Shown in pieces: positions 1 to 31,389 of a stretch of DNA of 32,556 bases (its first letter is position 1; each line of letters starts with the position of its first letter). Source of the stretch: an uncultured virus (IMG/VR IMGVR_UViG_3300050343_000142) (lineage: Duplodnaviria; Heunggongvirae; Uroviricota; Caudoviricetes); IMG/VR virus record IMGVR_UViG_3300050343_000142; one strand, given 5' to 3'. The notes beneath the pieces were generated by a model. It was not told the origin of the DNA. It was given only the letters and a program-made list of their open reading frames with translations, and searched no databases. Both the position numbers and the translations under genes were made by a program.

Positions 1-64
1 TTTAAAGAATCAATGTGACCATCATCCTGCCTTAGTACTATCTGATTGCTACGGCTGTTTCTAA
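1..64 (+). CDS. 3' end of small membrane protein (full copy at 31666..31914)
   Basis: Mirror of the C-terminus of the 31666..31914 ORF. Confidence 0.6.
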   Translation, partial: LKNQCDHHPALVLSDCYGCF

Positions 65-148
65 TACAGCACAACTGCTCATCAAGTTTGACTTGGTGGG
101 CAGCATGGTGTGTTAGTCCAACATACCACTAAAAGAAAGGAGATGCAT

Positions 149-340
149 ATGCAATGTATCAAAACGGTTCCGTCTTCTAAGACGAAGGAGGAACAGTGTA
201 CATATCCACCTTATGTCCAGAGTCAAACGGATAAGAGGGAGGTCTTGTGTAGGTTCCATTTGATGGATAAAGTCGTAAGACATGCACATGAAAAGAAGCA
301 AACAGTTGAACAGACTGTAGCTGATTTAAACATAAGCTAA
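149..340 (+). CDS. Hypothetical protein, possible Zn-binding (Cys/His)
   Basis: ACTAAAAGAAAGGAG leader before ATG 149. Confidence 0.7.
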   Translation: MQCIKTVPSSKTKEEQCTYPPYVQSQTDKREVLCRFHLMDKVVRHAHEKKQTVEQTVADLNIS

Positions 341-361
341 AACTGAAAGAGAGGAAGCTAT

Positions 362-424
362 ATGGATGCTAAAGATATAGTGCGTAATCCAAACGCATTA
401 GAAGCTATGTACGATATTAGCTAA
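362..424 (+). CDS. 20-aa microprotein MDAKDIVRNPNALEAMYDIS
   Basis: GAGGAAG SD before ATG; stop overlaps the conserved hairpin as in neighbouring genes. Confidence 0.5.
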   Translation: MDAKDIVRNPNALEAMYDIS

Positions 425-495
425 TAGCTCGGAGCCTATTGAAAGGTAGGCTCTAAGGTATTAACACAAGGTTAATCCAATACTAAAGGAGAGAC

Positions 496-810
496 ATGAA
501 TCTAATCATGAGACTAATACATGCAGTACCACTGTATGTTTTCATGGTCATTGAAAACTATCGTTTCTATGGCGTGAATTATGTTACCAGTTTGACACAC
601 TGGTGGCGTGTAGAGGTATATACAATTACGGACTACAAGAAGTATGTGTTGTGTGAGCACATCAAGGAGTTCAGTAGTTGGTATGGACCTAAGCGTAGAT
701 ACAACCATACTAAACATTCTTTAAAGAAGTTAGAGAGTGTTCTGGATGAAGTTGAACAAGAAAATAGAAGGCAACAATTTCTTGAACTAGATACAAATTA
801 TCCACGCTAA
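496..810 (+). CDS. Hypothetical protein
   Basis: TACTAAAGGAG leader; 104-aa ORF ending at hairpin. Confidence 0.75.
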   Translation: MNLIMRLIHAVPLYVFMVIENYRFYGVNYVTSLTHWWRVEVYTITDYKKYVLCEHIKEFSSWYGPKRRYNHTKHSLKKLESVLDEVEQENRRQQFLELDTNYPR

Positions 811-880
811 TAGCTCGGAGTTCATTTATGAGGTGAACTCTAGGGTATTAACAATGATACCACTAAAAAAAGGAGACTAT

Positions 881-1081
881 ATGAAGAAGAGTCTATTCAA
901 GAAAATCACTTATCTAATTGAGTGTTTTTATAGTTTAGCAAAAGGTAGATACACTGCTGACATTGAAGCATTGAATATTGCTATGGATGTTTATGGAAAG
1001 TATCTATTTGTGAACCTAGGTGAATTCGAGGGAGCACCTAAGTTAATGTTGTTCACAGCAAACTGTTGTCCCGACTGTTAA
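881..1081 (+). CDS. Hypothetical protein ending CCPDC
   Basis: ACTAAAAAAAGGAG leader places the start at ATG 881. Confidence 0.7.
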   Translation: MKKSLFKKITYLIECFYSLAKGRYTADIEALNIAMDVYGKYLFVNLGEFEGAPKLMLFTANCCPDC

Positions 1082-1154
1082 TAACTCGGAGCTCATTGTA
1101 ATGATGGGCTCTAGGGTATTGACACAAGGTTAGTACTAAAAGAAGGAGGGCTAA

Positions 1155-1334
1155 ATGCCTAGAATAAAAGATACTGCCAAAGTTATATTGTCAGACGAGA
1201 CAAGGGACGAGATGGTATATACGTGGAATGCATTCAACTTGGATGTTACCAAAGAAAGAAAACGAGAGCTTATGGGTCTTGTTTGGATACCAGCTTATGT
1301 CAATTGTTTCTTTAAGGAAATGATAGATAGCTAA
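1155..1334 (+). CDS. Hypothetical 59-aa protein
   Basis: TACTAAAAGAAGGAGG leader; open frame to TAA in hairpin. Confidence 0.7.
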   Translation: MPRIKDTAKVILSDETRDEMVYTWNAFNLDVTKERKRELMGLVWIPAYVNCFFKEMIDS

Positions 1335-1406
1335 TAGCTCGGAGCTCATTCACGTGGGCTCTAGGGTGTTAGTAATTCGACTAACCCACTAAAAGAAGGA
1401 GACTAT

Positions 1407-1565
1407 ATGAAGAAGATATTTGTAATCGAGCAAATTGTCAAAGAACAATATAAGGTCGAAGCAAATAATGAGGAAGAAGCTACCTCTAAACTTCAAGATA
1501 TGACTGCTGAACCATTCTTACAGGAAGGTATCAGTTTGAGAATTCTTGAGACTAGAACTAAGTAA
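1407..1565 (+). CDS. 52-aa protein with VEANNEEEA motif (DpnD/PcfM-like small phage protein)
   Basis: ACTAAAAGAAGGAG leader; family resemblance from motif recall only. Confidence 0.65.
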   Translation: MKKIFVIEQIVKEQYKVEANNEEEATSKLQDMTAEPFLQEGISLRILETRTK

Positions 1566-1580
1566 AAGAAAGGAGGCTTT

Positions 1581-1706
1581 ATGTTATGTAGTCATTGTGG
1601 TAAATCCATGAAGAATACAAAAGTAAAGTTTAGAAAGTTCATGAGGCAAGGTGTAGTAGGTATGGCTCCTACTTGCAATGATTGTTATATGTCATGGGCA
1701 ATATAG
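1581..1706 (+). CDS. 41-aa zinc-ribbon microprotein (CSHC...CNDC)
   Basis: AGAAAGGAGG SD; two CxxC motifs. Confidence 0.65.
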   Translation: MLCSHCGKSMKNTKVKFRKFMRQGVVGMAPTCNDCYMSWAI

Positions 1707-1862
1707 CTTAAACAGCTCGGACCTACTAGATATAGTGGGTCTAGGGTGTTTAACACCAACATTATAAATATTGAGTTGACGTAGCAGTATTAATAATGTA
1801 CAGTAAAAACTACAGATTGAGCGTCAACCTCAATCCGTATAACCAATAAAAAAGGAGATAAA

Positions 1863-3863
1863 TTGAAAGTAGAAAATCTATCGTTTAACGAGATGATTGT
1901 TCAATTTGTAGCTATGTTGGAGGAACTACCAAGTCAAATGCATGAGCAATCATGTAACTGGCTTACTGGTGGAGATGCCGACTTTGAGTACGATGACATG
2001 GATGACCTTGTCAATAATCACTTCGATAGTGAGGATGAGTTGTACTACTACCTTTACGAAAGATTCGTAGATGTAGCAGTTGCTCGCCATAGTTCTCAAA
2101 ACGTTTCACGACGTAGAGCTACGTTCAATGCAAGTGATGAGCATGCCTCATTCAACCATAGTTACTATTCTCACAGGAGAATGTATATTGTGGAAGCATT
2201 GGAGAATGCTAGATATGAAGTAGAAGCAACGGAGAATACTCTTCGTGTACGTTTCTTCGAGTATGTGCCAACTAGACCTGATATGAAGAACTGGTTGTTC
2301 TTATCATATGATGGTGAGGAACGCAGATATGGAAACATAGCTAGTCACTGGAAGATAGAAATGTTCAAGCGTAAGCTTGTTGCTACTGCTGGTATGAGAG
2401 AGAGTTCAAGAACTAGAAAGTTCTGTCCTCACTGTCGTGCAGTATGTAACCCTACGACTGACATGTTCACTATCAACCAGGGTAGAAGTCGACCAATTAA
2501 AGTATGTGTGTTATGCACAATATACTTTTATGACTTCTATGAATTGAGCACTGGCACTTTCCACTATGTAGGTAACGAAGATGACTTAGATACTGTTGAC
2601 TATTCAGCAGAACTAATCACTAGAGTTACTGACTTACGTAACTTCAAACGTTACGACTTAGTGGACTGGATAAAAGACCGAGTTGGTGTGGTACCATTCA
2701 TTCCTAATTACAATTATGAAGACTACCACTCTGAACTAAATTGGTCCTTTTGGCAGACTACTGACCAAGGTACTGTAGCTATACCTAATAATAGATATGG
2801 CACTACAGTACAGAGGGATGTAACCCATGAGTCCAAAGAGTATGCTCGTAAGGGTATACCGATTGGAATGGAATTGGAAGTTCAATATAGGGACTTACAA
2901 GACCAACTAACTGGTGGAATACGTAAACTATTACATCCATTGCATAAGGATTTTCCTTATAACAATGAGAGATTACGTAGTACAAACAATCAGTTAGCTA
3001 TTGGGTCATACGACGTATCGACTGGTAGACATGGTCTGGAGTTCAAGTTCCAACCTATGTCACATCAGTTCGTTGCAAAACTACCCGATGACTTCTTTGA
3101 GACTTTGGTCTCAGAGTTCAGAGGATACAATGCAAAACGTTGTGGTATTCATATGAATATCCCCAAGAGTGTACTAAGTACAGGTCAGTACTGGTTCTTT
3201 ATCGCTTGGCACAATATGAGACTATGGGAATACACTCACGCAAGTGAAGATGGTTACCATAACATATTGGGTGACATCTATCAGAGAGTAGATGCAGAAT
3301 ATGCTAAGTGGTTAAGTCTTACTGAAGTGTCAATACCAGAGTCTGGATACGACTTTGAATGTCGCTGTGGTAATCATGATGGTGAGTCTCAAGTAGTTAC
3401 TATTGCTTGTAGCACATCAAGATACCTAGCAAGGCGAACTTCAAGTCCTGACAGAGCGTGCTGGATTAACATAGAGAATGCTGACAGAGTGGAAGTTAGA
3501 GCGTTTGCTTCAAATACATTGAAGTCCAGACTGCTCAAGAACTACCAGTTCTTAGATGCTTTCATGACTTATGCTGACGCAGTAACACTCAGTTACAAAA
3601 CTAATCAAATGCAAAATATCAATGGTGGTATACAGAAGGAGCTTGAAGCTGCTTTTGAACCAGACGATTTAGGTATTGTTTTGAATCACTTAAACAATCA
3701 ATACCTGTTTGTATCTTGGTTAGATGCAACTGGTTATTGCCATCAGTATCCAGAACTCACGGAATACTTGGACTCGAAAGGGTACAGAGCCAGAGCCAAT
3801 GAGGCTATGGAATCTAGTGCTTCGTTCAAAGAACAAGTAGACCATGTAGTTAACTGGTCATAA
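1863..3863 (+). CDS. Putative amidoligase (COOH-NH2 ligase/Amidoligase_2-like) with long N-terminal region containing CxxC pairs
   Basis: Motifs GMELEV, GLEFKFQPM, CGIHMNI, RVEVRAF; adjacent to a class II glutamine amidotransferase. Confidence 0.75.
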   Translation: MKVENLSFNEMIVQFVAMLEELPSQMHEQSCNWLTGGDADFEYDDMDDLVNNHFDSEDELYYYLYERFVDVAVARHSSQNVSRRRATFNASDEHASFNHSYYSHRRMYIVEALENARYEVEATENTLRVRFFEYVPTRPDMKNWLFLSYDGEERRYGNIASHWKIEMFKRKLVATAGMRESSRTRKFCPHCRAVCNPTTDMFTINQGRSRPIKVCVLCTIYFYDFYELSTGTFHYVGNEDDLDTVDYSAELITRVTDLRNFKRYDLVDWIKDRVGVVPFIPNYNYEDYHSELNWSFWQTTDQGTVAIPNNRYGTTVQRDVTHESKEYARKGIPIGMELEVQYRDLQDQLTGGIRKLLHPLHKDFPYNNERLRSTNNQLAIGSYDVSTGRHGLEFKFQPMSHQFVAKLPDDFFETLVSEFRGYNAKRCGIHMNIPKSVLSTGQYWFFIAWHNMRLWEYTHASEDGYHNILGDIYQRVDAEYAKWLSLTEVSIPESGYDFECRCGNHDGESQVVTIACSTSRYLARRTSSPDRACWINIENADRVEVRAFASNTLKSRLLKNYQFLDAFMTYADAVTLSYKTNQMQNINGGIQKELEAAFEPDDLGIVLNHLNNQYLFVSWLDATGYCHQYPELTEYLDSKGYRARANEAMESSASFKEQVDHVVNWS

Positions 3864-3972
3864 GTAGATAGCTAGAGCCCATCTGAAATATGGTGGGCTC
3901 GATGGTATCTATATAGGAAAGGATACTAGGTGAAGTTCATACCTAAAAGTTGAACAATAAGGAGGTACACAA

Positions 3973-5034
3973 TTGTGTATTATAGCTAGTGTTCCAGCAG
4001 GAGCACAAGTAACCAAAGACCAACTATCAGAGATGTGGACACGCAACCCTGATGGTGGTGGTATTGCATATTTCGTCGATGGCGAAATCAAAGTAGAGAA
4101 AGATATGGAACGTGAAAGTTTTATTGACACTGTACTTGAGACGCAGAAGAAATATGGTAATCGAGACATATTAGTACATATGAGAATAGCAACTCATGGT
4201 GCTGTATGCATCGACAATACTCACCCGTTTGAGGTCAACAAGAACACAGTCATGGCACATAATGGTATATTGCCAGAAGCATTTATACCACCAGCTAAGT
4301 CTGCGTTATCTGACACTCGATTCTTCATAGATTACTTTATGAAGTACATTCCAGTGCAGAAATTGGATGACCCTTACTTCCAAGACATGGTTGACGAAAT
4401 GATTAACCAAGGTTACGGAAATAAGTTGGTGTTCTTAACATCTGCTAAGACTAAGTATGACACTTATATCATAGGTGAAAAGCTTGGTGTATGGGATGGA
4501 GGTGTGTGGTTTAGTAACAGCTCTTACGAGAGTAGGAAGTTTGTTAGCTACAACTACCATCGAGGAACAACTCAAACGATAGATGGCGTAACTATCTCAG
4601 ATAATTGCGAAATCTTACCAATAGTTGATGACGTCGACTTAGTAGAAGAAGGCGAAATCAATGACTGGTTGGTTTACCATTCAGACCTGTGGCTACCATT
4701 CCAAGAAGTTGGAGTGCTTGACCACAAGGAAATGAAAGATTCGTTCTGTGTCGAAATGACATGGGACGGTCTTCGTTGTTCTGAGTGTGGTAAGACTGTA
4801 GCTGGTATCTATGAAAGAATGTGCAACTCAGATTGTAAATCAATCGAGCATGTAATTGATTGGGTATATGACAACATCGAAGCATCTGACGAGATGATTG
4901 ATGCAGCTTTGTATTCAGGAATGCTCTACCAAGGTGGAGAACCTGTTACAGACGGTCAGCCTACTTTGTTTGACATGTCTACTAAGACTAAGAAAAAGTC
5001 TAAGAAGAATAAATCAAACAAAAAGTCTAAGTAG
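3973..5034 (+). CDS. Class II (Ntn) glutamine amidotransferase
   Basis: N-terminal Cys (MCIIA), NPDGGG, HMRIATHG, HPF, HNG, SDT motifs. Confidence 0.9.
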   Translation: MCIIASVPAGAQVTKDQLSEMWTRNPDGGGIAYFVDGEIKVEKDMERESFIDTVLETQKKYGNRDILVHMRIATHGAVCIDNTHPFEVNKNTVMAHNGILPEAFIPPAKSALSDTRFFIDYFMKYIPVQKLDDPYFQDMVDEMINQGYGNKLVFLTSAKTKYDTYIIGEKLGVWDGGVWFSNSSYESRKFVSYNYHRGTTQTIDGVTISDNCEILPIVDDVDLVEEGEINDWLVYHSDLWLPFQEVGVLDHKEMKDSFCVEMTWDGLRCSECGKTVAGIYERMCNSDCKSIEHVIDWVYDNIEASDEMIDAALYSGMLYQGGEPVTDGQPTLFDMSTKTKKKSKKNKSNKKSK

Positions 5035-5138
5035 TACTTAGCTTATCGGGGTATCAAGTTTCATGCTTGGTGCCCCGTCAGGTAAGTAAAACGCTTACCC
5101 ATGTAGAAATACATGCCAATACTAAAAGGAGAAAGACT

Positions 5139-5720
5139 ATGAACAAACCAATACCAAAGTTCCTTCATGAAGACCTGAAGAAGCTTATTGGAAAAAGGAA
5201 TCCAACACAAGATGACGTTAGCAAGTTACTTGAGTTGGTGTTCACAACTAAATATCGTTGGACAGAACGTGTTATGCAATACCAAAATGTTCACTATGAG
5301 GCAGAAACTCATGTATCTTTAGAGGATATGCTAGAAGATAGTGGTGAGCTAAGCGACTTAATTGAAGCTTGGCAACGAGGTGATGTAGAAGAATGCACCG
5401 CCATTATTGGTAATGCAGTTGACGTAGCTGAGGACGACTTACATGACAATCGTTGGGACCATTCAGATGAGGTAGATAGAGACTACCTTGATGAAGAGTT
5501 TGAAGATACGATTGACTCAGATGTGGATACGTTCGTAACTACTAGACAACAAGGTACATCCTGGATGGGCGAGCGACTCAGAGACTATCATAGTCATGAG
5601 GGTCAACAGCACTTCTTTACATGGAAAAACATCGTCAATTGGTTCGCCAATAGACGAAGTACTCCTATGAACACGGCTGCTCATGTAAGATACACGAGAC
5701 AGGATGAGGAGACGAACTAA
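5139..5720 (+). CDS. Acidic hypothetical protein
   Basis: TACTAAAAGGAG leader places the start at ATG 5139. Confidence 0.75.
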   Translation: MNKPIPKFLHEDLKKLIGKRNPTQDDVSKLLELVFTTKYRWTERVMQYQNVHYEAETHVSLEDMLEDSGELSDLIEAWQRGDVEECTAIIGNAVDVAEDDLHDNRWDHSDEVDRDYLDEEFEDTIDSDVDTFVTTRQQGTSWMGERLRDYHSHEGQQHFFTWKNIVNWFANRRSTPMNTAAHVRYTRQDEETN

Positions 5721-5834
5721 AGCTAGCTAGTAGCTAACCTCCCTCTACTTAATTGTGGGGGGAGACAGGTGCTAGCACCCGTTAAGTACTACGACGTTAC
5801 TGTAGTGCACATACTAAAAAAAGGAGATACACTT

Positions 5835-6884
5835 ATGTGTAGAGAAGAATGCTATTCTGTAGTTCCCGAACTGCAGTCTTATAGCCATAAGCCAGAAGTC
5901 AAGTACATTGATACTCGATTCATGACCCTAGGTGGTTATGACCCAGGTAATCATACTGTATTTGTTGGTCATCATGCCGATAAAACAGAAGAGTACTTGA
6001 AATCTGCTGTCGATGCTACTGATGGATTCATTCCGATGGGAGTGGAAATAGAAGTAGAACACACATCAGAAACCGACCACGGTATGAGTAGAGGTGAATC
6101 TACAGAGGAAGCTCTGATAGAATTACATGACTACTCACCACACTATATTGACGAGTCAGACTCAAGACTTAGACAATTAATAATTGCTAAGACTGACAGC
6201 TCACTTAGTCATGGTGTGGAGTTCGTAACACAACCTATGACTGTTAGAGCTCATAAGTTGATGAACTGGGAAGCATTGCAGAGTAAAGGCTTTTATGCCT
6301 GGAATGCGAGTACTGCAGGAATGCATGTACATCTTCCTAAGTCATACTTTACGACTACTCAGTTGTGGTTGTTCTTAAAGTTATATCAAAACCTCTGGAC
6401 GTCAGAGAAAGATTACTTTAACTGGCTAGCTGGTAGAGCAGAAAACAGTTGGGCTAAAAGGCAAATGCCTTTCAGAAACTCAGCTGATAACAATCTACTA
6501 GCAGTTGCTTCTACAAAGTGGGACGATAGACGAGACAGATATTCTGCCTTGAACTTCCTCAATGCCTATACAATTGAGTTAAGGTTCTTTCGTTCTAACA
6601 TGAACATCGATGGACTATTAAGTAGACTTGAATTCGTTCAAGCATCTTATGACTTCGTTTGTGTTCTAAGTAGACTCAACAAGAAAGATATGTTCGATGC
6701 TATAAACTTCGGACTATCAAAGCAGTTACATCTGTTTATGATTGGTAACAAATCAGAGTATCCAATCATCTCAGAGAGATTGCTTAATACAAATAAGTTC
6801 GGTGTTACATCTGACTTCGTTAACGAAGACATGGTGATACCATCGTTAATCAATGGGTTAAACCAAGTAAGGAAAGGAGCGTAG
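5835..6884 (+). CDS. Putative amidoligase (Amidoligase_2-like), second paralogue
   Basis: GVEIEVE, DSSLSHGVEFVTQP, AGMHVH, RYSALN, TIELRFF; start at ATG 5835 after AAAGGAG. Confidence 0.85.
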   Translation: MCREECYSVVPELQSYSHKPEVKYIDTRFMTLGGYDPGNHTVFVGHHADKTEEYLKSAVDATDGFIPMGVEIEVEHTSETDHGMSRGESTEEALIELHDYSPHYIDESDSRLRQLIIAKTDSSLSHGVEFVTQPMTVRAHKLMNWEALQSKGFYAWNASTAGMHVHLPKSYFTTTQLWLFLKLYQNLWTSEKDYFNWLAGRAENSWAKRQMPFRNSADNNLLAVASTKWDDRRDRYSALNFLNAYTIELRFFRSNMNIDGLLSRLEFVQASYDFVCVLSRLNKKDMFDAINFGLSKQLHLFMIGNKSEYPIISERLLNTNKFGVTSDFVNEDMVIPSLINGLNQVRKGA

Positions 6885-7030
6885 TGGATACAATACTAAC
6901 TGCTACAATCTGGTTCTTCCTCACTATCGGCTTGGCAGGTGCAATTGCATTCTACCTATCCAAAGACGTCGACATGAGCGACGATTATAGGACTATCTAT
7001 AATTGGTACTCTGACGACGACGAGGAGTAA
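6884..7030 (+). CDS. 48-aa single-pass membrane protein with acidic tail
   Basis: AAAGGAG SD; GTG overlaps upstream TAG; hydrophobic stretch then DDDEE. Confidence 0.65.
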   Translation: MDTILTATIWFFLTIGLAGAIAFYLSKDVDMSDDYRTIYNWYSDDDEE

Positions 7031-7035
7031 CCTAA

Positions 7036-7078
7036 AGCCTGGATGGTCGCATGGAGGGTTCGACTCCCTCCACAGGCT
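7036..7078 (+). ncRNA. Minimal tRNA-like element (acceptor-like stem plus T-arm)
   Basis: AGCCTG/CAGGCT stem with GAGGG-TTCGACT-CCCTC; no D stem or anticodon arm. Confidence 0.55.
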
Positions 7079-7311
7079 CTTTAACCAATAAATTCCAAAC
7101 GTAAAGTTATGGTGGCAGTTTGTTAGGCTGTACATGACTTTAAGTACATGTCTTATAACGGGGGAGAGGTCTGTCCAAACTGGATTTCAACTTTCACCAT
7201 TTTTCACCATCATCCACCATATTTCAGCTTGCTTCCTATCTTGACGTCCAATATCTGAAGGTTATATATTTAGTTAAATAGTCCTAAGATGGAACTAAAG
7301 ATATTATCCGA

Positions 7312-7381
7312 AAATCCCGTGTTTTTTTATCACTCATCAATAGGGTAAATCCCGTAAAAATAAAGCACACATCAATAGGGT
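7312..7381. repeat. Two imperfect 35-bp tandem repeats
   Basis: AAATCCCGT-n14-CATCAATAGGGT twice. Confidence 0.75.
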
Positions 7382-7706
7382 TTGATGACGAGATTTCTCT
7401 TCCACGCTTCCCTGGGAGAGTAAACGGCTTCTCTTGTTAATAAATCTAATAAGGGAACGCACGAATTGGGAGAGGTGCGTCCAAAATGAAATTCGACCTC
7501 GTTTTTGACATCAAACCACTACATATAGTATGTTTTCCGTGATGTCGAAACTCGCTCCGAACCTGCCATTCTGTGTTTCCACAATGTATTAAGATGTAGA
7601 TAAATCTATTAAGAGATAGCGAAGCGTCCTGCAGAAGACGGCGATTCTGGGTACATCAAGTCAATGTTTATAGGCTTTTAAAAGGAATCTCAGATGGGTT
7701 ACTGCG

Positions 7707-8060
7707 TTAGCGTATGTACCAATCTCCACTTTCAATAACAGGATAACCACGATTAAACTGAAAAACATAAGCAATTGCAGTCGTGTCGTCCTCTAAATAA
7801 ATTTCTTCATCCATATAAAGATAAGGAACACCCTCAATGGTATCTAATGCTTTCTTGGTTAAATCGTCTATTTCCCATAATTCTCCCTGTATTTCTTGAA
7901 TACCCTCTTTACACAGAGCTGGGAACATTCCGACATCAACCAATGTATATAAAGGTTTTGTCTTAATATCTTTAATATATTTAGCGTCTAAGTTGTCGGA
8001 TAACATAAAAGAACGGCTATCGCCTTTTCTCAATGTTCCATATACAAATATCTTAATCAT
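7707..8060 (-). CDS. Gamma-glutamylcyclotransferase (AIG2/GGACT family)
   Basis: IFVYGTLRKG, FPAL, GELWEI, LDTIEG motifs. Confidence 0.92.
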   Translation of the reverse strand: MIKIFVYGTLRKGDSRSFMLSDNLDAKYIKDIKTKPLYTLVDVGMFPALCKEGIQEIQGELWEIDDLTKKALDTIEGVPYLYMDEEIYLEDDTTAIAYVFQFNRGYPVIESGDWYIR

Positions 8061-8185
8061 TCAGTTTCCTTTCAAAGTAAGACACAAAGTCGTCATTTAA
8101 ACTCCATATCTTAATAATCCTTACAACGTTGTCCAAGTACCTATATACTTTTCTCGTCATAGCTATTCTAATTTTCTCAATCATG

Positions 8186-8262
8186 TGGACGTGGAGGGAA
8201 TCGAACCCTCGTTACCTAATACAATGTACACCATACAAGTTTAAGTCTATCCATTCACGCCC
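8186..8262 (-). ncRNA. tmRNA-like tRNA domain without an mRNA-like domain (77 nt)
   Basis: Acceptor GGGCGTG/CACGTCC with G3-U70 and A73; stemless D-loop AATGGATAGAC; T-arm GAGGG-TTCGATT-CCCTC. Confidence 0.65.
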
Positions 8263-8267
8263 TAGTT

Positions 8268-8831
8268 TTACTTAACAAAGACTCCTGTTCGTAAAAACTC
8301 TTGTCTTTCTGCGTTAAAATCCCACTTAGGTTTGTGTTCTTGCTCTCGTTCCCATGACAACTTATTAGCTGATATCCTATCATATTCACGAAAAGCTAAT
8401 TCAAAGTTATCAATAGTAGACAAAGTCATATTTCTAAAGTCTCTATTTTTCCAATAACGTAAACTTTCTCCGACAGTATGGTCTTTTTTCATCATCGCTT
8501 TAGATAAATCAACGATACTGCACTTTCTTTTAACAATAGCTTCGTTAATGTAAGTTGGGTCAAGTAAAAATTCTAAGTCATCAGTAGTAATGAAGTTAGG
8601 ATATTTATCGGGTGCAAGTCTTTGATAATCACGTAAAGCATCGCTAATTGCTTTATAAGTTTGATACTTAGGAATTCTTTTTTTGGACTTCACACTACGG
8701 ATATAGCCACTTTTAACACCAATAGACTTTTCAAATCTACCAATAAGTATTCCATGTTCTACGTCTACAAACTTTTGAAAGACAGACCACAGTCTATCTC
8801 TTTTGATAATTCTTGTTCTCCTCAACATCAT
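8268..8831 (-). CDS. Putative DNA-binding protein, possibly two XRE-like HTH domains
   Basis: GGAGG SD; two helical segments resembling HTH domains (weak). Confidence 0.5.
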   Translation of the reverse strand: MMLRRTRIIKRDRLWSVFQKFVDVEHGILIGRFEKSIGVKSGYIRSVKSKKRIPKYQTYKAISDALRDYQRLAPDKYPNFITTDDLEFLLDPTYINEAIVKRKCSIVDLSKAMMKKDHTVGESLRYWKNRDFRNMTLSTIDNFELAFREYDRISANKLSWEREQEHKPKWDFNAERQEFLRTGVFVK

Positions 8832-8849
8832 CCCCTCCAAAATTTTCTA

Positions 8850-8916
8850 AAAACGGACGGATAGAAAATTCCTAGGAAGAAAGGAGGCAAAAAACCTAGG
8901 CGAAACCTACCCGTCC
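8850..8916 (-). ncRNA. Stem-loop displaying an anti-SD loop UUUUUUGCCUCCUUUCUU
   Basis: GGACGGGTAG/CTATCCGTCC outer stem (G-U pair on minus strand), CCTAGG/CCTAGG inner stem, followed by a U-tract. Confidence 0.55.
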
Positions 8917-8954
8917 TAAACCTATGGCTTAATTTTACCAACAACATCTGAAAT

Positions 8955-9182
8955 CTACTGTATTTCATCCGTCTGTTCTTTCTTAAATCTCAAGTTATCG
9001 ACAACAACGTTGATTTTACTAGCTATTCTCTCAGCTATTTTACTTTGGACTTCTAAGTTCCACAGTTCTTCCTCAGCATTATATTGTTCAATATCTTTCC
9101 TAATAGAATCAACGAGAAGTTGATTAATTTCCACAACCAACTCCTCAACTTTTTGATTCGCCACCTTTTTCTCCTCTTTCAT
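8955..9182 (-). CDS. Hypothetical coiled-coil protein
   Basis: Operon position; overlapping start/stop. Confidence 0.7.
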   Translation of the reverse strand: MKEEKKVANQKVEELVVEINQLLVDSIRKDIEQYNAEEELWNLEVQSKIAERIASKINVVVDNLRFKKEQTDEIQ

Positions 9183-9427
9183 CTAAATTTTTTCTGTTTC
9201 CACAAAGGTACTAACTTATTGTCATGTCCAACATGCCAATCATCACACCAAGGGCAATCATACGCTTTTGCTTTAGCCTGCCGACGTCTTGGGTTGTTGT
9301 TCATCGTAATAGCTATTTCTTGTGCTTTGCTTTGCGACAATGCTTTTTTTCGACGACACCCATAACATTTCGGACATTGACATTTGCTCCCGTTGACCTC
9401 GTACCAACATACCTTATTCGTCTTCAC
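9179..9427 (-). CDS. Small Zn-binding protein (YDCPWCDDWH)
   Basis: Cys/His motifs; operon coupling. Confidence 0.7.
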   Translation of the reverse strand: MKTNKVCWYEVNGSKCQCPKCYGCRRKKALSQSKAQEIAITMNNNPRRRQAKAKAYDCPWCDDWHVGHDNKLVPLWKQKKFR

Positions 9428-9875
9428 TTGCAGTAGTAGGAACTGTTTTTTCGAGTTGTTTGTCTAAAAAGTATTCAGACTTACCCTCAAACTGTGACCA
9501 TAGATGTAATCCTACACCAATAGCCATAGCACATCTTTTAATTGCGTCGGATACTGCGTCTTTTAATCTCGCACCATCAGTTCTCCAATTAGTAGGGTTC
9601 TCGACATCGCCTGCTTCCTCTACAGTTACAATGTTACCGTCAATTTCAACAGTTAAAGCAAGTACACAACCTGTAATGATTGATTTGTAGTTGCCGTCTT
9701 TGTCTTTGACGTCCTCTCGTATAATTTCTTTTACCTCTTGTGAATAAGCACCGAGTACACTAAGTAGTCGTTGTCTTATAACAGAGTGTTGTATGTAGTC
9801 GCCAAATTTACCTTTAGGAGCTTTATGTATAAACTCCTTTGGAAATGGTCTTGATAGTTCGTGTAATTGTTCCAC
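9414..9875 (-). CDS. Rad52/Rad22-like single-strand annealing protein
   Basis: LSRPFP, YI..RQRL..VLG, KDAVSDAIKRCAMAIGVGLHLW. Confidence 0.85.
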   Translation of the reverse strand: MEQLHELSRPFPKEFIHKAPKGKFGDYIQHSVIRQRLLSVLGAYSQEVKEIIREDVKDKDGNYKSIITGCVLALTVEIDGNIVTVEEAGDVENPTNWRTDGARLKDAVSDAIKRCAMAIGVGLHLWSQFEGKSEYFLDKQLEKTVPTTASEDE

Positions 9876-9901
9876 TTTTTCCTCCTGTTAGTTAATTAAT
9901 T

Positions 9902-10873
9902 CTATTTCTCGTTAGCCCAATTGTCAAGTTCGCTTGCAGTTCTCATCTTTTGTTGCAATGTACTTAACTCATTAGGGGATAGTCTAGGCGATACTTTATC
10001 TAAAGACGCCCAATGTTTCGCTAATGATGTCGGAGTTGCTTTGAAGCCAAAGTTAAGCAAATGGTTTTTTGCTCTAATTGGAATATCATTCAAGTCAACA
10101 TCAATATCATTAAGTTCTTTTACTGCTTTGTTTAACTGACCTCTAGCCATTGAAGTAAGTTGGTTCATATCATAACCTAAAGCAATACAGATTGTTTTAA
10201 AAATCTGTTTATGTCTTTGTCCCATGTCCTCGACAATAACTTCCCAATCATTCAAAACTAATTCATTTCCAACTTCATTTACTGCAACTTCGTTGCTAAT
10301 AATCTTGTCTTCTCTTGTCTTGTCTTCTCTTGTCTTGTCTACGTCGGACGGGCTATGGACATCCTTTGGACGTCCTGTGGACACGTTCTTATCAAATTTA
10401 TTAAGGTTGATGACCTCGTATTCAATAGGTTTTTCGGGGCTTTGTTCTATTTCAGCCTCGCTAGTCCACTCTCTTGTGTCGCCATTACTCTTAGCAAATT
10501 TATTAGCAGACGTTTTTGAGTTTGCTCTTTGCCTAGATTGACGTTTTCTCTCTGCGTCCTTTTGTCTGATTTCAATAAGAGCACCTGTGTATTCAACCCA
10601 ATCATGAATTGTTAACTTACCGTCATTTTCATCAATCCAACCATGTTTAATTAATGCTTTGGTAAAGTCTTCTGGCTCTCCCTCCCATTGTGCAGAAAAA
10701 GGCACAAAGTCTTTGTATCGTGTAATGTCGCCGTTCTCAGCATAATCTACTGCCCACCACCAAAATAGGTGCAAATGCCCTATTGCTTGTGGGATAGTTA
10801 TACCAAGTTCATTGGCTACTAATTTTAATTTAGGGTGTTGCCCTAACGCTTGTTCTGATTTAATCCAAGCCAT
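9902..10873 (-). CDS. Phage replication initiator (replisome organiser-like)
   Basis: MAWIK..HPK..GHLHLFWWWA, IHDWVEY, DAERKRQSR, DKTRED linker repeats. Confidence 0.75.
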   Translation of the reverse strand: MAWIKSEQALGQHPKLKLVANELGITIPQAIGHLHLFWWWAVDYAENGDITRYKDFVPFSAQWEGEPEDFTKALIKHGWIDENDGKLTIHDWVEYTGALIEIRQKDAERKRQSRQRANSKTSANKFAKSNGDTREWTSEAEIEQSPEKPIEYEVINLNKFDKNVSTGRPKDVHSPSDVDKTREDKTREDKIISNEVAVNEVGNELVLNDWEVIVEDMGQRHKQIFKTICIALGYDMNQLTSMARGQLNKAVKELNDIDVDLNDIPIRAKNHLLNFGFKATPTSLAKHWASLDKVSPRLSPNELSTLQQKMRTASELDNWANEK

Positions 10874-23990: not shown

Positions 23991-24650
23991 TTAAAACCTA
24001 ATGATTGTGGTACATACGCTAACGCAGTAACCCATCTGAGATTCCTTTTAAAAGCCTATAAACATTGACTTGATGTACCCAGAATCGCCGTCTTCTGCAG
24101 GACGCTTCGCTATCTCTTAATAGATTTATCTACATCTTAATGCATTGTGGAAACACAGAATGGCAGGTTCGGAGCGAGTTTCGACATCACGGAAAACATA
24201 CTATATGTAGTGGTTTGATGTCAAAAACGAGGTCGAATTTCATTTTGGACGCACCTCTCCCAATTCGTGCGTTCCCTTATTAGATTTATTAACAAGAGAA
24301 GCCGTTTACTCTCCCAGGGAAGCGTGGAAGAGAAATCTCGTCATCAAACCCTATTGATGTGTGCTTTATTTTTACGGGATTTACCCTATTGATGAGTGAT
24401 AAAAAAACACGGGATTTTCGGATAATATCTTTAGTTCCATCTTAGGACTATTTAACTAAATATATAACCTTCAGATATTGGACGTCAAGATAGGAAGCAA
24501 GCTGAAATATGGTGGATGATGGTGAAAAATGGTGAAAGTTGAAATCCAGTTTGGACAGACCTCTCCCCCGTTATAAGACATGTACTTAAAGTCATGTACA
24601 GCCTAACAAACTGCCACCATAACTTTACGTTTGGAATTTATTGGTTAAAG

Positions 24651-24693
24651 AGCCTGTGGAGGGAGTCGAACCCTCCATGCGACCATCCAGGCT
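24651..24693 (-). ncRNA. Minimal tRNA-like element (IR copy)
   Basis: Mirror of 7036..7078. Confidence 0.55.
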
Positions 24694-24698
24694 TTAGG

Positions 24699-24845
24699 TT
24701 ACTCCTCGTCGTCGTCAGAGTACCAATTATAGATAGTCCTATAATCGTCGCTCATGTCGACGTCTTTGGATAGGTAGAATGCAATTGCACCTGCCAAGCC
24801 GATAGTGAGGAAGAACCAGATTGTAGCAGTTAGTATTGTATCCAC
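24699..24845 (-). CDS. Small membrane protein (IR copy)
   Basis: Mirror of 6884..7030. Confidence 0.65.
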   Translation of the reverse strand: MDTILTATIWFFLTIGLAGAIAFYLSKDVDMSDDYRTIYNWYSDDDEE

Positions 24846-25894
24846 TACGCTCCTTTCCTTACTTGGTTTAACCCATTGATTAACGATGGTATCACCATGT
24901 CTTCGTTAACGAAGTCAGATGTAACACCGAACTTATTTGTATTAAGCAATCTCTCTGAGATGATTGGATACTCTGATTTGTTACCAATCATAAACAGATG
25001 TAACTGCTTTGATAGTCCGAAGTTTATAGCATCGAACATATCTTTCTTGTTGAGTCTACTTAGAACACAAACGAAGTCATAAGATGCTTGAACGAATTCA
25101 AGTCTACTTAATAGTCCATCGATGTTCATGTTAGAACGAAAGAACCTTAACTCAATTGTATAGGCATTGAGGAAGTTCAAGGCAGAATATCTGTCTCGTC
25201 TATCGTCCCACTTTGTAGAAGCAACTGCTAGTAGATTGTTATCAGCTGAGTTTCTGAAAGGCATTTGCCTTTTAGCCCAACTGTTTTCTGCTCTACCAGC
25301 TAGCCAGTTAAAGTAATCTTTCTCTGACGTCCAGAGGTTTTGATATAACTTTAAGAACAACCACAACTGAGTAGTCGTAAAGTATGACTTAGGAAGATGT
25401 ACATGCATTCCTGCAGTACTCGCATTCCAGGCATAAAAGCCTTTACTCTGCAATGCTTCCCAGTTCATCAACTTATGAGCTCTAACAGTCATAGGTTGTG
25501 TTACGAACTCCACACCATGACTAAGTGAGCTGTCAGTCTTAGCAATTATTAATTGTCTAAGTCTTGAGTCTGACTCGTCAATATAGTGTGGTGAGTAGTC
25601 ATGTAATTCTATCAGAGCTTCCTCTGTAGATTCACCTCTACTCATACCGTGGTCGGTTTCTGATGTGTGTTCTACTTCTATTTCCACTCCCATCGGAATG
25701 AATCCATCAGTAGCATCGACAGCAGATTTCAAGTACTCTTCTGTTTTATCGGCATGATGACCAACAAATACAGTATGATTACCTGGGTCATAACCACCTA
25801 GGGTCATGAATCGAGTATCAATGTACTTGACTTCTGGCTTATGGCTATAAGACTGCAGTTCGGGAACTACAGAATAGCATTCTTCTCTACACAT
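24845..25894 (-). CDS. Putative amidoligase (IR copy)
   Basis: Same protein as 5835..6884. Confidence 0.85.
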   Translation of the reverse strand: MCREECYSVVPELQSYSHKPEVKYIDTRFMTLGGYDPGNHTVFVGHHADKTEEYLKSAVDATDGFIPMGVEIEVEHTSETDHGMSRGESTEEALIELHDYSPHYIDESDSRLRQLIIAKTDSSLSHGVEFVTQPMTVRAHKLMNWEALQSKGFYAWNASTAGMHVHLPKSYFTTTQLWLFLKLYQNLWTSEKDYFNWLAGRAENSWAKRQMPFRNSADNNLLAVASTKWDDRRDRYSALNFLNAYTIELRFFRSNMNIDGLLSRLEFVQASYDFVCVLSRLNKKDMFDAINFGLSKQLHLFMIGNKSEYPIISERLLNTNKFGVTSDFVNEDMVIPSLINGLNQVRKGA

Positions 25895-26008
25895 AAGTGT
25901 ATCTCCTTTTTTTAGTATGTGCACTACAGTAACGTCGTAGTACTTAACGGGTGCTAGCACCTGTCTCCCCCCACAATTAAGTAGAGGGAGGTTAGCTACT
26001 AGCTAGCT

Positions 26009-26590
26009 TTAGTTCGTCTCCTCATCCTGTCTCGTGTATCTTACATGAGCAGCCGTGTTCATAGGAGTACTTCGTCTATTGGCGAACCAATTGACGATGT
26101 TTTTCCATGTAAAGAAGTGCTGTTGACCCTCATGACTATGATAGTCTCTGAGTCGCTCGCCCATCCATGATGAACCTTGTTGTCTAGTAGTTACGAACGT
26201 ATCCACATCTGAGTCAATCGTATCTTCAAACTCTTCATCAAGGTAGTCTCTATCTACCTCATCTGAATGGTCCCAACGATTGTCATGTAAGTCGTCCTCA
26301 GCTACGTCAACTGCATTACCAATAATGGCGGTGCATTCTTCTACATCACCTCGTTGCCAAGCATCAATTAAGTCGCTTAGCTCACCACTATCTTCTAGCA
26401 TATCCTCTAAAGATACATGAGTTTCTGCCTCATAGTGAACATTTTGGTATTGCATAACACGTTCTGTCCAACGATATTTAGTTGTGAACACCAACTCAAG
26501 TAACTTGCTAACGTCATCTTGTGTTGGATTCCTTTTTCCAATAAGCTTCTTCAGGTCTTCATGAAGGAACTTTGGTATTGGTTTGTTCAT
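26009..26590 (-). CDS. Acidic hypothetical protein (IR copy; E>D and T>S changes)
   Basis: Mirror of 5139..5720. Confidence 0.75.
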   Translation of the reverse strand: MNKPIPKFLHEDLKKLIGKRNPTQDDVSKLLELVFTTKYRWTERVMQYQNVHYEAETHVSLEDMLEDSGELSDLIDAWQRGDVEECTAIIGNAVDVAEDDLHDNRWDHSDEVDRDYLDEEFEDTIDSDVDTFVTTRQQGSSWMGERLRDYHSHEGQQHFFTWKNIVNWFANRRSTPMNTAAHVRYTRQDEETN

Positions 26591-26694
26591 AGTCTTTCTC
26601 CTTTTAGTATTGGCATGTATTTCTACATGGGTAAGCGTTTTACTTACCTGACGGGGCACCAAGCATGAAACTTGATACCCCGATAAGCTAAGTA

Positions 26695-27756: not shown

Positions 27757-27865
27757 TTGTGTACCTCCTTATTGTTCAACTTTTAGGTATGAACTTCACC
27801 TAGTATCCTTTCCTATATAGATACCATCGAGCCCACCATATTTCAGATGGGCTCTAGCTATCTAC

Positions 27866-29867: not shown

Positions 29868-30023
29868 TTTATCTCCTTTTTTATTGGTTATACGGATTGA
29901 GGTTGACGCTCAATCTGTAGTTTTTACTGTACATTATTAATACTGCTACGTCAACTCAATATTTATAATGTTGGTGTTAAACACCCTAGACCCACTATAT
30001 CTAGTAGGTCCGAGCTGTTTAAG

Positions 30024-30149
30024 CTATATTGCCCATGACATATAACAATCATTGCAAGTAGGAGCCATACCTACTACACCGTGCCTCATGAACTTTCTAA
30101 ACTTTACTTTTGTATTCTTCATGGATTTACCACAATGACTACATAACAT
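30024..30149 (-). CDS. Zinc-ribbon microprotein (IR copy, Q>H)
   Basis: Mirror of 1581..1706. Confidence 0.65.
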   Translation of the reverse strand: MLCSHCGKSMKNTKVKFRKFMRHGVVGMAPTCNDCYMSWAI

Positions 30150-30164
30150 AAAGCCTCCTTTCTT

Positions 30165-31368: not shown

Positions 31369-31389
31369 ATAGCTTCCTCTCTTTCAGTT

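What the first reader, a model, noticed from the sequence alone, without database searches (positions are those of the whole stretch)
8186..8262. Miniature tmRNA mimic: Ala-identity tRNA-like domain with no tag reading frame
Seen (minus strand): GGGCGTG AATGGATAGA CTTAA...TTAGG TAAC GAGGG TTCGATT CCCTC CACGTCC A. It has G3-U70 and A73, a stemless D-loop with GG..GAC, and one irregular helix of about 30 nt closed by a short loop. Established: these are hallmarks of the tmRNA tRNA-like domain, which is charged by AlaRS and bound by SmpB; normal tmRNA has a large mRNA-like/pseudoknot domain at that helix. CCA is not encoded. Inference: an SmpB sponge or tag-less ribosome-rescue RNA that alters trans-translation during infection.
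Basis: partly seen in the sequence, partly recalled or inferred. Interest (0 to 1): 0.8.

Follow-up and report, generated by a model that had tools for sequence, protein, structure and literature searches.

The report
Phage tag-less mini-tmRNA gene
An uncultured marine phage carries a real 77-base gene for only the alanine-accepting, tRNA-like end of the bacterial ribosome-rescue RNA (tmRNA), a type already published for mycobacteriophage DS6A and thought to interfere with the host's rescue-and-tagging system.

Summary
Window 8262..8186 (minus strand) has a 7-bp acceptor stem with G3-U70, A73, a 5-bp T arm with a 7-nt loop, a 9-nt stemless D-loop analogue, and one 33-nt hairpin where tmRNA carries its pseudoknots and tag frame. 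CCA is not encoded. ARAGORN calls nothing. Rfam's tmRNA model aligns end to end, replacing 326 model positions with 34 nt (36.1 bits, E 3.7e-11, below the cut-off of 47). The published 'TLD only' tmRNA of mycobacteriophage DS6A gives the same alignment in the same tests (43.2 bits, missed by ARAGORN). Close homologues occur on 4 viral and 20 metagenome contigs in at least four gene neighbourhoods. They share an invariant frame and three different inner hairpins. Two further short families have different acceptor stems. All keep G3-U70 and A73. The element is the best-conserved stretch of its region. The function, competition for SmpB or tag-less rescue, is inferred from passages on DS6A-like RNAs; expression could not be shown. 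This is a new member of a known kind. This scan already holds 156 matching notes, of which the 8 shown describe phage tag-less mini-tmRNAs on other DNA.

The parts
8186..8262 (-). Mini-tmRNA (TLD-only) gene, 77 nt up to discriminator A73; CCA not encoded
   Evidence: Sequence; fold; global alignment to Rfam tmRNA RF00023, 36.1 bits, E 3.7e-11
8256..8262 (-). Acceptor stem, 5' strand (RNA positions 1-7), with G3 of the G3-U70 pair
   Evidence: Pair 3 is G-U in 14 of 14 aligned sequences while pairs 2, 4, 5, 6 and 7 covary
8247..8255 (-). Stemless D-loop analogue (RNA positions 8-16) with the GG dinucleotide
   Evidence: Unpaired in the fold; aligned to the tmRNA 5' consensus; invariant in family types A-C
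8214..8246 (-). Inner hairpin (RNA positions 17-49), in place of tmRNA helix 2, the pseudoknots and the tag frame. This is the variable part of the family
   Evidence: Fold. Relatives have three different hairpin sequences that all fold as one helix
8194..8210 (-). T arm (RNA positions 53-69): 5-bp stem, 7-nt loop UUCGAUU
   Evidence: 100% paired in 14 sequences, 2 of 5 pairs with double changes
8186..8193 (-). Acceptor stem 3' strand (U70 at window position 8191) and discriminator A73 (8186)
8268..8840 (-). Upstream ORF (190 aa, no family match). Its stop codon ends 5 nt before the RNA gene. Same strand
   Evidence: Conserved at this position in 4 of 12 representative loci, types A1, A3, B1 and B1b
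8053..8184 (-). Downstream small ORF (43 aa) whose ATG starts 2 nt after A73. Same strand
   Evidence: 81-100% identical copies lie just downstream of the element in 8 of 21 loci examined
7707..8060 (-). Gamma-glutamyl cyclotransferase-like gene (GGACT), next gene downstream
   Evidence: PHROG 2520 at 3.8e-15; Pfam PF06094 at 3.9e-18. Found near the element in 5 of 12 representative loci

Best explanation
This is a phage gene for a 'TLD-only' (tag-less) tmRNA. It encodes a 77-nt RNA that reproduces the tRNA-like domain of tmRNA: an acceptor stem with the alanine identity pair G3-U70, A73, a T arm and a stemless D-loop. A plain hairpin replaces the pseudoknots and the tag-coding region.

Shown:
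- the anatomy;
- its better fit to tmRNA than to tRNA;
- its conservation as an RNA across phage contigs;
- its equivalence, in the same tests, to the published DS6A 'TLD only' tmRNA.

Inferred:
- It is transcribed with the early/replication genes on the same strand.
- It is cut out by RNase P and a 3' endonuclease, then receives CCA from the host enzyme.
- It is charged with alanine by AlaRS and bound by host SmpB, and by EF-Tu when charged.
- With no resume codon or tag frame it cannot complete trans-translation. Its main effect would be to compete with host tmRNA for SmpB and stalled ribosomes, suppressing tagging and degradation of incomplete proteins during infection.
For: 1. tmRNA match. 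The tmRNA model aligns to both ends (model 1-374), replacing 326 model positions with 34 nt: 36.1 bits, E 3.7e-11, the only Rfam match in the window at E<=1.

2. Same behaviour as DS6A. Its published TLD-only tmRNA scores 43.2 bits with 312 model positions replaced by 20 nt, is not called by ARAGORN, and also lacks an encoded CCA.

3. tmRNA beats tRNA. In the nearest relative, G001, the tmRNA model gives 37.8 bits and the tRNA model 24.8.

4. Short relatives score the same way: 39.7, 42.1 and 45.8 bits, and 61.8 bits (above the cut-off) for a 79-nt form with encoded CCA.

5. Pairing in 14 distinct sequences (three A, seven B, one C, D, E and DS6A):
- 168 of 168 acceptor and T-arm cells pair.
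- 7 of 12 pairs show double changes.
- 0 of 500 shuffles reach these values.
- G3-U70 is kept in 14 of 14 while neighbouring pairs change.
The acceptor stem was not part of the search patterns.

6. Common shape. The 6 sequences folded (types A, B, C, D, E and DS6A) give closed acceptor and T arms. Types A-E also show the unpaired D-loop analogue and a single inner helix; the DS6A minimum-energy fold differs in the middle.

7. Conservation. Against L037 the 100-nt bin holding the element is 98% identical while the other bins span 53-98%, with 63% and 87% in the two adjacent bins.

8. Autonomy. The family sits in at least four unrelated gene neighbourhoods, always on the same strand as its neighbours, and no flanking protein is shared by all.

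9. Phage setting. The window carries a replication initiator, Erf/Rad52-type annealing protein, RusA, SSB and a ParB-like protein.

10. Literature (passages read):
- PMC4131195 lists 'Mycobacterium phage DS6A (TLD only)' and says a similar molecule, chargeable or not, strongly inhibits tmRNA, perhaps by titrating SmpB.
- PMC11915505 says the DS6A form inhibits endogenous tmRNA when expressed in E. coli.
Against: - Curated thresholds are not met. The score is 36.1 against 47 bits for tmRNA, and ARAGORN calls neither a tRNA nor a tmRNA.
- CCA is not encoded, so charging depends on 3' processing and CCA addition in an unknown host.
- The linker before the T arm reads UAAC where the tmRNA consensus has GGAC. 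Whether SmpB binding tolerates this is untested.
- Expression is not shown. Contigs from RNA libraries (X1 and X3, one study) cover the whole 3-kb stretch evenly, which DNA carry-over would also give.
- No dedicated promoter or terminator stands out: 9 promoter-like sites against 7.7 +/- 2.8 in shuffles.
- Within types B and C the inner-helix covariation is weak: 1 double and 4 one-sided changes, with 70 of 500 shuffles as good.
- The host and its tmRNA and SmpB are unknown, so matching of the mimic to its target could not be tested.
- The primary paper on the DS6A-like inhibition (Mao et al. 2009) is not held. I rely on how two later papers describe it.
Confidence: 0.6

Rival explanations
1. 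Productive tag-less rescue. The alanyl-mini-tmRNA with SmpB enters stalled ribosomes and accepts the nascent chain. The ribosome is then freed by drop-off with peptidyl-tRNA hydrolase or by a release factor. Phage and host ribosomes are recycled without marking the products for proteolysis. On this reading the RNA replaces tmRNA's rescue role and does not merely block it.
For: - The alanine identity set (G3-U70, A73) is kept in 14 of 14 sequences, including three independent acceptor stems. Pure SmpB titration would not obviously require this, since the passage in PMC4131195 says inhibition occurs 'whether or not chargeable'.
- Peptidyl transfer to a TLD-only tmRNA is cited in PMC3895274 (passage).
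- PMC11915505 (passage) argues that CDS-less mitochondrial tmRNAs still help with incomplete mRNAs.
Against: - The RNA has no codon-bearing single-stranded region to load into the mRNA channel. The inner region is one closed helix with a 3-6-nt tip.
- Nothing here or in the passages read shows a release step.
- The published effect is inhibition.
Confidence: 0.2
2. A tRNA-like processing or recombination module with no role in trans-translation. It would serve as an RNase P / RNase Z 'punctuation' site that splits the early polycistronic transcript. It may also serve as a conserved stretch at which related phages recombine.
For: - The element is wedged between a stop codon 5 nt upstream and a start codon 2 nt downstream. 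In type B1 the upstream ORF's stop codon lies inside the element.
- A mosaic boundary between the window and L003 falls inside the element: 100% identity downstream and 54-82% upstream as far as 8726.
Against: - Punctuation would need only a generic tRNA shape. It would not need the tmRNA-specific D-loop analogue or strict retention of G3-U70 and A73 across different acceptor stems.
- In other neighbourhoods the element sits 34-166 nt from its neighbours, so tight packing is not general.
Confidence: 0.1
3. A decoy or trigger for host defence proteins that recognise tmRNA or tRNA-like RNAs. Examples are nucleases that attack tRNA or tmRNA, or systems with SmpB-like domains. The mini RNA would soak these up.
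For: - PMC11090510 (passages) predicts SmpB-like RNA-binding domains in CoCoNuT restriction systems.
- PMC11662646 (passages) shows a phage anti-CRISPR that works through tRNA and tmRNA fragments.
- The hypervariable inner arm on a constant frame resembles an arms-race pattern.
Against: - No defence or anti-defence gene is linked to the element in any neighbourhood examined.
- This is purely by analogy.
Confidence: 0.07
4. A fragment of host ssrA carried as a phage attachment site (attP) for integration into the host tmRNA gene.
For: tmRNA genes are frequent integration sites (PMC11915505 abstract). The 3' half alone resembles a tmRNA 3' end.
Against: - The 5' acceptor strand and D-loop analogue are also present and close a complete 7-bp stem. 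An attP needs only the 3' part.
- No integrase family matched any of the 35 window ORFs scanned against PHROGs or the 30 scanned against Pfam, nor the 21 flanking ORFs from other contexts.
- The gene sits inside an early operon, in several different neighbourhoods.
Confidence: 0.03

Closest known systems
'TLD only' (CDS-less) tmRNA of Mycobacterium phage DS6A (PMC4131195 Table 2 and text; PMC11915505; original report Mao et al. 2009, RNA Biol 6:355, not held)
   Same: - Phage-encoded and about 80 nt.
- Complete tmRNA tRNA-like domain with G3-U70 and A73, and a short hairpin in place of the pseudoknots and tag frame.
- No encoded CCA.
- Global alignment to Rfam tmRNA with the centre deleted and a score below the cut-off (43.2 against 36.1 bits); missed by ARAGORN.
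   Different: - No sequence relationship beyond the TLD consensus. The acceptor stem, inner hairpin and G+C content all differ: 0.69 for DS6A against 0.45 here.
- The phage lineage and habitat differ: marine metagenomes and an unknown host, against an actinophage.
- The 3' linker is UAAC, not the GCAC of DS6A or the GGAC of the consensus.
- Here it belongs to a family with exchangeable inner arms.
Bacterial tmRNA (SsrA, Rfam RF00023)
   Same: The tRNA-like domain: 7-bp acceptor stem with G3-U70, A73, T arm with GUUCGAUUC, stemless D-loop analogue with GG, and a GAC motif at the base of helix 2.
   Different: Lacks the resume codon, tag reading frame and all pseudoknots, with 326 model positions replaced by 34 nt. 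Lacks an encoded CCA. Scores below the family cut-off.
CDS-less organellar tmRNAs (jakobid and other mitochondria; ~65-bp Mallomonadaceae plastid genes; PMC11915505 passage)
   Same: Natural tmRNAs reduced to little more than the tRNA-like domain, with no tag frame.
   Different: Those are the resident tmRNA of an organelle, co-occurring with SmpB. This one is an extra copy brought by a virus into a cell that presumably has its own full tmRNA.
Full-length phage tmRNAs (cluster C mycobacteriophages such as Bxz1, and Bacillus phage G; PMC4131195)
   Same: Phage-borne ssrA-type genes.
   Different: Those keep a tag frame. Among loci fetched here, one viral contig (L011) has a full 373-nt tmRNA at 106.7 bits. 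The window's gene is the stripped form.
tRNA-Ala / canonical tRNA (Rfam RF00005)
   Same: Acceptor-T minihelix with the alanine identity elements.
   Different: No D stem, no anticodon arm and no 7-nt anticodon loop. ARAGORN finds no tRNA. The tRNA model scores 24.8 bits, below its cut-off of 29, on the nearest relative.

Membership tests
tmRNA (RF00023), tRNA-like domain | 7-bp acceptor stem with G3-U70 and discriminator A73 (AlaRS identity) | tested here: met
   Read from the sequence and the fold. G-U at pair 3 in 14 of 14 aligned sequences.
tmRNA (RF00023), tRNA-like domain | T arm of 5 bp with a 7-nt T-loop, and a stemless D-loop analogue with GG followed by GAC at the base of helix 2 | tested here: met
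   Alignment to the model consensus; fold. The 3' partner motif reads UAAC where the consensus has GGAC.
tmRNA (RF00023), whole molecule | Rfam gathering score (47 bits) | tested here: not met
   36.1 bits; nothing at gathering threshold.
tmRNA (RF00023), whole molecule | mRNA-like domain with resume codon, tag reading frame and stop codon | tested here: not met
   ARAGORN finds no tmRNA or tag peptide. Only a 33-nt closed hairpin lies between the TLD halves.
tmRNA (RF00023), whole molecule | Pseudoknots PK1-PK4 | tested here: not met
   326 model positions are replaced by 34 nt.
tmRNA (RF00023), whole molecule | Encoded or added 3' CCA; aminoacylation with alanine; SmpB binding | not testable with these tools
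   CCA is not encoded, as A73 is followed by CAU. Charging and SmpB binding need biochemistry.
TLD-only (CDS-less) phage tmRNA, DS6A type | Both TLD halves contiguous, closed by a short hairpin, total length about 65-85 nt, on a phage genome | tested here: met
   77 nt. Phage gene content. DS6A gives the same alignment pattern.
TLD-only (CDS-less) phage tmRNA, DS6A type | Inhibits host tmRNA tagging when expressed | not testable with these tools
   Known only from passages in PMC4131195 and PMC11915505 that cite Mao et al. 2009.
TLD-only (CDS-less) phage tmRNA, DS6A type | Common descent with the DS6A gene | tested here: inconclusive
   In alignment A1 only TLD-consensus positions are shared. 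Acceptor pairs 4-6 and the inner hairpin differ. Independent origin from a different host tmRNA is equally possible.
Canonical tRNA (RF00005) | Cloverleaf with D stem and an anticodon arm (5 bp, 7-nt loop); passes tRNA detectors | tested here: not met
   ARAGORN finds 0 genes in the window. The fold has no D stem and a 3-nt tip. RF00005 scores 24.8 bits (below 29) on the G001 homologue. In the window the clan match left out scored lower than tmRNA.
Two-piece (permuted) tmRNA (RF04321) | Permuted order of acceptor halves with a separate coding piece | tested here: not met
   Only the T arm matches, at 8.6 bits and E 9. The halves are in standard order and close one stem.
ssrA-derived attP site | Only the 3' part of ssrA, next to an integrase gene | tested here: not met
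   The 5' half is present. No integrase appears among the ORFs scanned. The window is only part of a genome, so an integrase elsewhere is not excluded.

The most novel reading that the evidence does not exclude
The constant TLD frame with an exchangeable inner arm could be a modular phage RNA. The frame recruits AlaRS, SmpB and EF-Tu, while the arm carries a second, lineage-specific function such as host- or defence-specific recognition.

Three unrelated arm sequences sit on an identical frame, and a recombination boundary lies inside the gene.

Alternatively, the strict retention of alanine identity means the RNA performs a minimal, tag-free form of ribosome rescue (one alanine, then release). 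That would be a viral alternative to trans-translation, not a mere SmpB sponge.
Probability: 0.15. Interest if true: 0.7.

Novelty: new member of a known kind. Interest (0 to 1): 0.35.

Why it matters
The gene is missed by standard annotation. ARAGORN and Rfam at default thresholds both stay silent, here and on the published DS6A example.

In print the phage TLD-only tmRNA rests on one mycobacteriophage. This window adds a marine family found on 24 contigs, and two more short families turned up with the same search patterns. Stripping tmRNA down to its tRNA-like domain therefore looks like a recurrent phage strategy, not a curiosity.

If the inferred mechanism is right, these phages switch off or bypass the host's tagging of incomplete proteins during early infection. 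The strict retention of the alanine identity pair offers a clean experimental handle for telling an SmpB sponge from a tag-free rescuer.

It does not open a new category.

Tried and rejected
1. Rejected: ARAGORN is negative, there is no anticodon arm, and the tRNA model scores below the tmRNA model and below its own cut-off.

2. 3' end of a longer tmRNA. When only 251 nt were searched, cmscan gave a 5'-truncated alignment reaching upstream to 8350. The whole-window search replaced it with the compact global alignment at 8262-8183. The upstream stretch is a conserved ORF.

3. Cultured relatives and host.
- blastn of 3 kb against 50,697 phage records found no match.
- tblastn with the replication initiator and the DUF932 protein gave only distant hits (<60% identity) to phages of many hosts.
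- The genome-contig scan returned only 3 Oscillospiraceae MAG loci; these look like ordinary tmRNA 3' ends by eye, and the Rfam scan of the one tested (L061) listed no tmRNA at E<=0.001.
- The host stays unknown, so I could not compare the mimic with its host's tmRNA.

4. Own assembly. It is not held, so the nearest virus record, G001, was used.

5. Expression. Contigs from four RNA libraries were laid on 7000-10000. Two runs from one study cover the whole stretch, including the element (a 218-nt contig spans 8053-8270). Contigs show no ends or strand, and DNA carry-over is possible. No conclusion was drawn.

6. Dedicated promoter or terminator. Nothing exceeded the shuffled expectation.

7. 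Functional link to neighbours. No flanking protein is shared by all neighbourhoods. Most flanking ORFs have no Pfam family.

8. Significant covariation inside the inner helix of types B and C. All 14 pairs stay paired, but there is only 1 double change and 70 of 500 shuffles do as well.

9. Primary DS6A paper. Mao et al. 2009 is not held.

10. More recent print on phage TLD-only tmRNAs. A search for 'mini-tmRNA', 'TLD-only', 'CDS-less', 'tagless tmRNA', 'truncated tmRNA' and 'tmRNA-like' returned 9 papers. By their listed titles and abstract starts, none is about a marine phage form.

Full report
**What is there**

RNA position p equals 8263 minus the window coordinate. The parts are:

| RNA positions | Part |
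|---|---|
| 1-7 with 70-76 | seven-pair acceptor stem; third pair is G-U |
| 77 | unpaired A (tRNA position 73), followed by CAU, so CCA is not encoded |
| 8-16 | unpaired; contain GG and precede GAC |
| 17-49 | one irregular hairpin: 13 pairs, one bulge, 3-nt tip |
| 50-52 | linker AAC |
| 53-69 | T arm: 5 bp, loop UUCGAUU |

The minimum-energy fold gives exactly this shape (-24.3 kcal/mol, z -2.2, 6 of 200 shuffles as good).

**Detectors**

- ARAGORN finds no tRNA or tmRNA in the window.
- Rfam at gathering thresholds finds nothing.
- With E-value reporting, the only match in the whole window at E<=1 is tmRNA RF00023, aligned globally. Model positions 1-18 and 345-374 match the two ends, and the 326 positions between them are replaced by 34 nt. 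The score is 36.1 bits (cut-off 47), E 3.7e-11.
- A first search of only 251 nt produced a 5'-truncated alignment running upstream to 8350. The whole-window run shows this was an artefact of the short stretch.
- The permuted-tmRNA model matches only the T arm (8.6 bits).

**Setting**

The window is phage DNA. It carries a replication initiator, an Erf/Rad52-type annealing protein, RusA, SSB, a ParB-like protein, DUF932 and a GGACT-family protein.

The RNA gene lies on the same strand as its neighbours. It starts 5 nt after the stop codon of a 190-aa ORF and ends 2 nt before the ATG of a 43-aa ORF, which is followed by the GGACT gene. No promoter- or terminator-like site stands out from shuffled expectation. 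Co-transcription followed by processing is therefore the simplest reading, but it is an inference.

**Relatives**

An 18-base pattern and two degenerate patterns were used. They specified only the D-loop motif and the T arm, not the acceptor stem.

| Source | Loci returned | Same family | Other |
|---|---|---|---|
| viral contigs | 5 and 25 | 4 contigs | 1 chance match (L002); 1 type E (L013); 20 tRNAs, tmRNAs and others |
| metagenome contigs | 29 | 20 contigs | 2 type D; 7 other (tmRNAs and tRNAs where scanned) |
| genome contigs | 3 | 0 | 3 Oscillospiraceae MAG loci with a tmRNA-3'-end-like sequence |

Two viral contigs have the same lengths as two metagenome contigs and are probably the same records.

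The family has 11 distinct sequences. The frame is identical in all of them, comprising positions 1-21 and everything from the last three hairpin bases to A73. The inner hairpin comes in three unrelated versions:
- type A, as in the window, with 3 variants;
- type B, with 7 variants;
- type C, with 1 variant.

Two further short forms have different acceptor stems and an encoded CCA:
- type D, on 2 metagenome contigs (76 nt);
- type E, on 1 viral contig (64 nt).

The types folded (A, B, C, D, E) give the same three-part shape.

**Is it an RNA under selection?**

In an alignment of 14 distinct sequences (A, B, C, D, E and DS6A):
- all 168 acceptor and T-arm cells pair;
- 7 of 12 pairs carry changes on both sides;
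- 0 of 500 shuffles and none of six slid registers come close;
- pair 3 is G-U in 14 of 14, while pairs 2, 4, 5, 6 and 7 change.

Within types B and C the 14 inner-helix pairs stay 100% paired. That rests on 1 double and 4 one-sided changes, which is not significant (70 of 500 shuffles). The stronger argument for the helix is that three unrelated sequences all form it.

Against a type A relative (L037), the 100-nt bin holding the element is 98% identical, while the other bins span 53-98% and the two adjacent bins are 63% and 87%. Against L003 (type B1), everything from the 3' part of the element downstream is 100% identical, while the inner arm and the upstream gene are 54-82% identical. A mosaic boundary therefore lies inside the gene.

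The family occurs in at least four unrelated gene neighbourhoods, always co-directional, and no flanking protein is shared by all.

**tmRNA or tRNA?**

| Element | tmRNA model (bits) |
|---|---|
| window, type A | 36.1 |
| G001, type B1 | 37.8 |
| L036, type B4 | 39.7 |
| L006, type C | 42.1 |
| L013, type E | 45.8 |
| L043, type D | 61.8 (above the cut-off of 47) |
| DS6A | 43.2 |

On the nearest relative (G001, type B1) the tRNA model gives 24.8 bits, below its cut-off of 29, against 37.8 for tmRNA. Nothing in the inner tips resembles a 7-nt anticodon loop.

**Comparison with what is known**

Hudson, Lau and Williams 2014 (PMC4131195, passages read) list 'Mycobacterium phage DS6A (TLD only)' among phages with ssrA. 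They state that a similar molecule, chargeable or not, strongly inhibits tmRNA, perhaps by titrating SmpB, citing Mao et al. 2009.

The 2025 tmRNA database paper (PMC11915505, passages read) repeats that the DS6A form inhibits endogenous tmRNA in E. coli. It also describes CDS-less tmRNAs in mitochondria and ~65-bp forms in Mallomonadaceae plastids.

I fetched DS6A (accession recalled, confirmed by the record's own description) and ran the same tests:
- Rfam aligns tmRNA globally at 28478-28560, with 312 model positions replaced by 20 nt, at 43.2 bits, also below the cut-off.
- ARAGORN misses it.
- Its A73 is likewise followed by a non-CCA trailer.

The window's gene is therefore the same kind of object. 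No sequence relationship is visible beyond the TLD consensus.

Mao et al. 2009 itself is not held. [quoted passage not shown]

**How it most likely works**

Shown: the anatomy, the conservation and the kind.

Inferred:
- excision by RNase P and a 3' endonuclease;
- CCA addition;
- alanylation through G3-U70 and A73;
- binding by SmpB, and by EF-Tu when charged;
- competition with host tmRNA, so that tagging is suppressed.

The main rival is a productive, tag-free rescue. It is favoured by the strict retention of alanine identity, which a pure SmpB sponge would not obviously need. It is disfavoured by the lack of any single-stranded codon-bearing region.

The lesser rivals are a transcript-punctuation or recombination module, a decoy for defence proteins that recognise tmRNA-like RNAs, and an attP fragment. 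The evidence for and against each is listed in the rival explanations.

**Expression**

Contigs from RNA libraries of one study cover the entire 3-kb stretch, element included. Such contigs show neither ends nor strand, and DNA carry-over is possible. I draw no conclusion.

**Host**

The host is unknown. There are no close cultured phage relatives and no prophage copy among the genomes scanned.

**Earlier notes of this scan**

I had already reached the DS6A reading. A word search then returned 156 matching notes from at least 122 genomes. The 8 shown are phage tag-less mini-tmRNAs, and one describes a constant frame with a changing inner arm. A sequence look-up found no note on this family. 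The notes agree with my reading. I tested the frame-and-arm pattern here myself.

**Verdict**

It is a new, unannotated member of a known but thinly documented kind. Interest is moderate.

Noticed in passing
window 1-7721 and 24008-31729: A perfect inverted repeat of about 7.7 kb in two pieces (4,991 nt and 2,730 nt, both 100% complementary, offset by one base) brackets the 16.3-kb unique region. Relatives confirm the left junction, where the GGACT gene is followed by arm sequence. The one relative checked (G001) matches only the arm side of the right junction at 24007/24008. This could be a fold-back assembly artefact or a real inverted duplication.
   Followed up: partly
L003 3001-3008 and L056 (type B1 relatives): In type B1 the upstream 189-aa ORF ends with a TGA formed by positions 6-8 of the RNA gene. 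Cutting the RNA out at its 5' end would leave that mRNA without a stop codon, making it a substrate for the pathway the RNA is thought to target. PMC4131195 (passage) describes a comparable overlap of smpB and ssrA in Carsonella.
   Followed up: no
window 8053-8184 (-): The 43-aa ORF starts 2 nt after A73, and no Shine-Dalgarno-like sequence is visible upstream; the preceding bases are the CCUCC-containing acceptor/T-arm strand. After 3' cleavage of the RNA, the downstream mRNA would be nearly leaderless. The ORF is kept at 81-100% amino-acid identity in 8 of 21 loci examined.
   Followed up: no
L043 1493-1568 (-), L049, and L013 1489-1552 (+): Two other TLD-only tmRNA-like genes (76 and 64 nt, CCA encoded, different acceptor stems, both with G3-U70 and A73) turned up on unrelated metagenome and viral contigs. 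One scores 61.8 bits, above Rfam's tmRNA cut-off, despite being only 79 nt with its CCA.
   Followed up: partly
window 8185 and 8250 (loose ends of RNA-library contigs, run X3): Some contigs match the element and then diverge, either exactly at its 3' boundary or inside its 5' part. One appears to carry a different acceptor 5' strand that still has G at position 3 (table 7). This suggests further variants or neighbourhoods of the family in that sample.
   Followed up: no
L011 1633-2005 (-), viral contig of 216,910 bp: A large viral contig carries a full-length tmRNA (106.7 bits) among several tRNA genes, including a tRNA-Sec-like match at 49.5 bits.
   Followed up: no
window 7707-8060 (-) and L033 1889-2242: A GGACT (gamma-glutamyl cyclotransferase-like) gene lies 200-400 nt downstream of the mini-tmRNA in two otherwise different neighbourhoods, 5 of 12 representative loci in all. 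Identity to the window's protein is 40% in L033. It is absent from the other neighbourhoods, so no link is claimed.
   Followed up: partly
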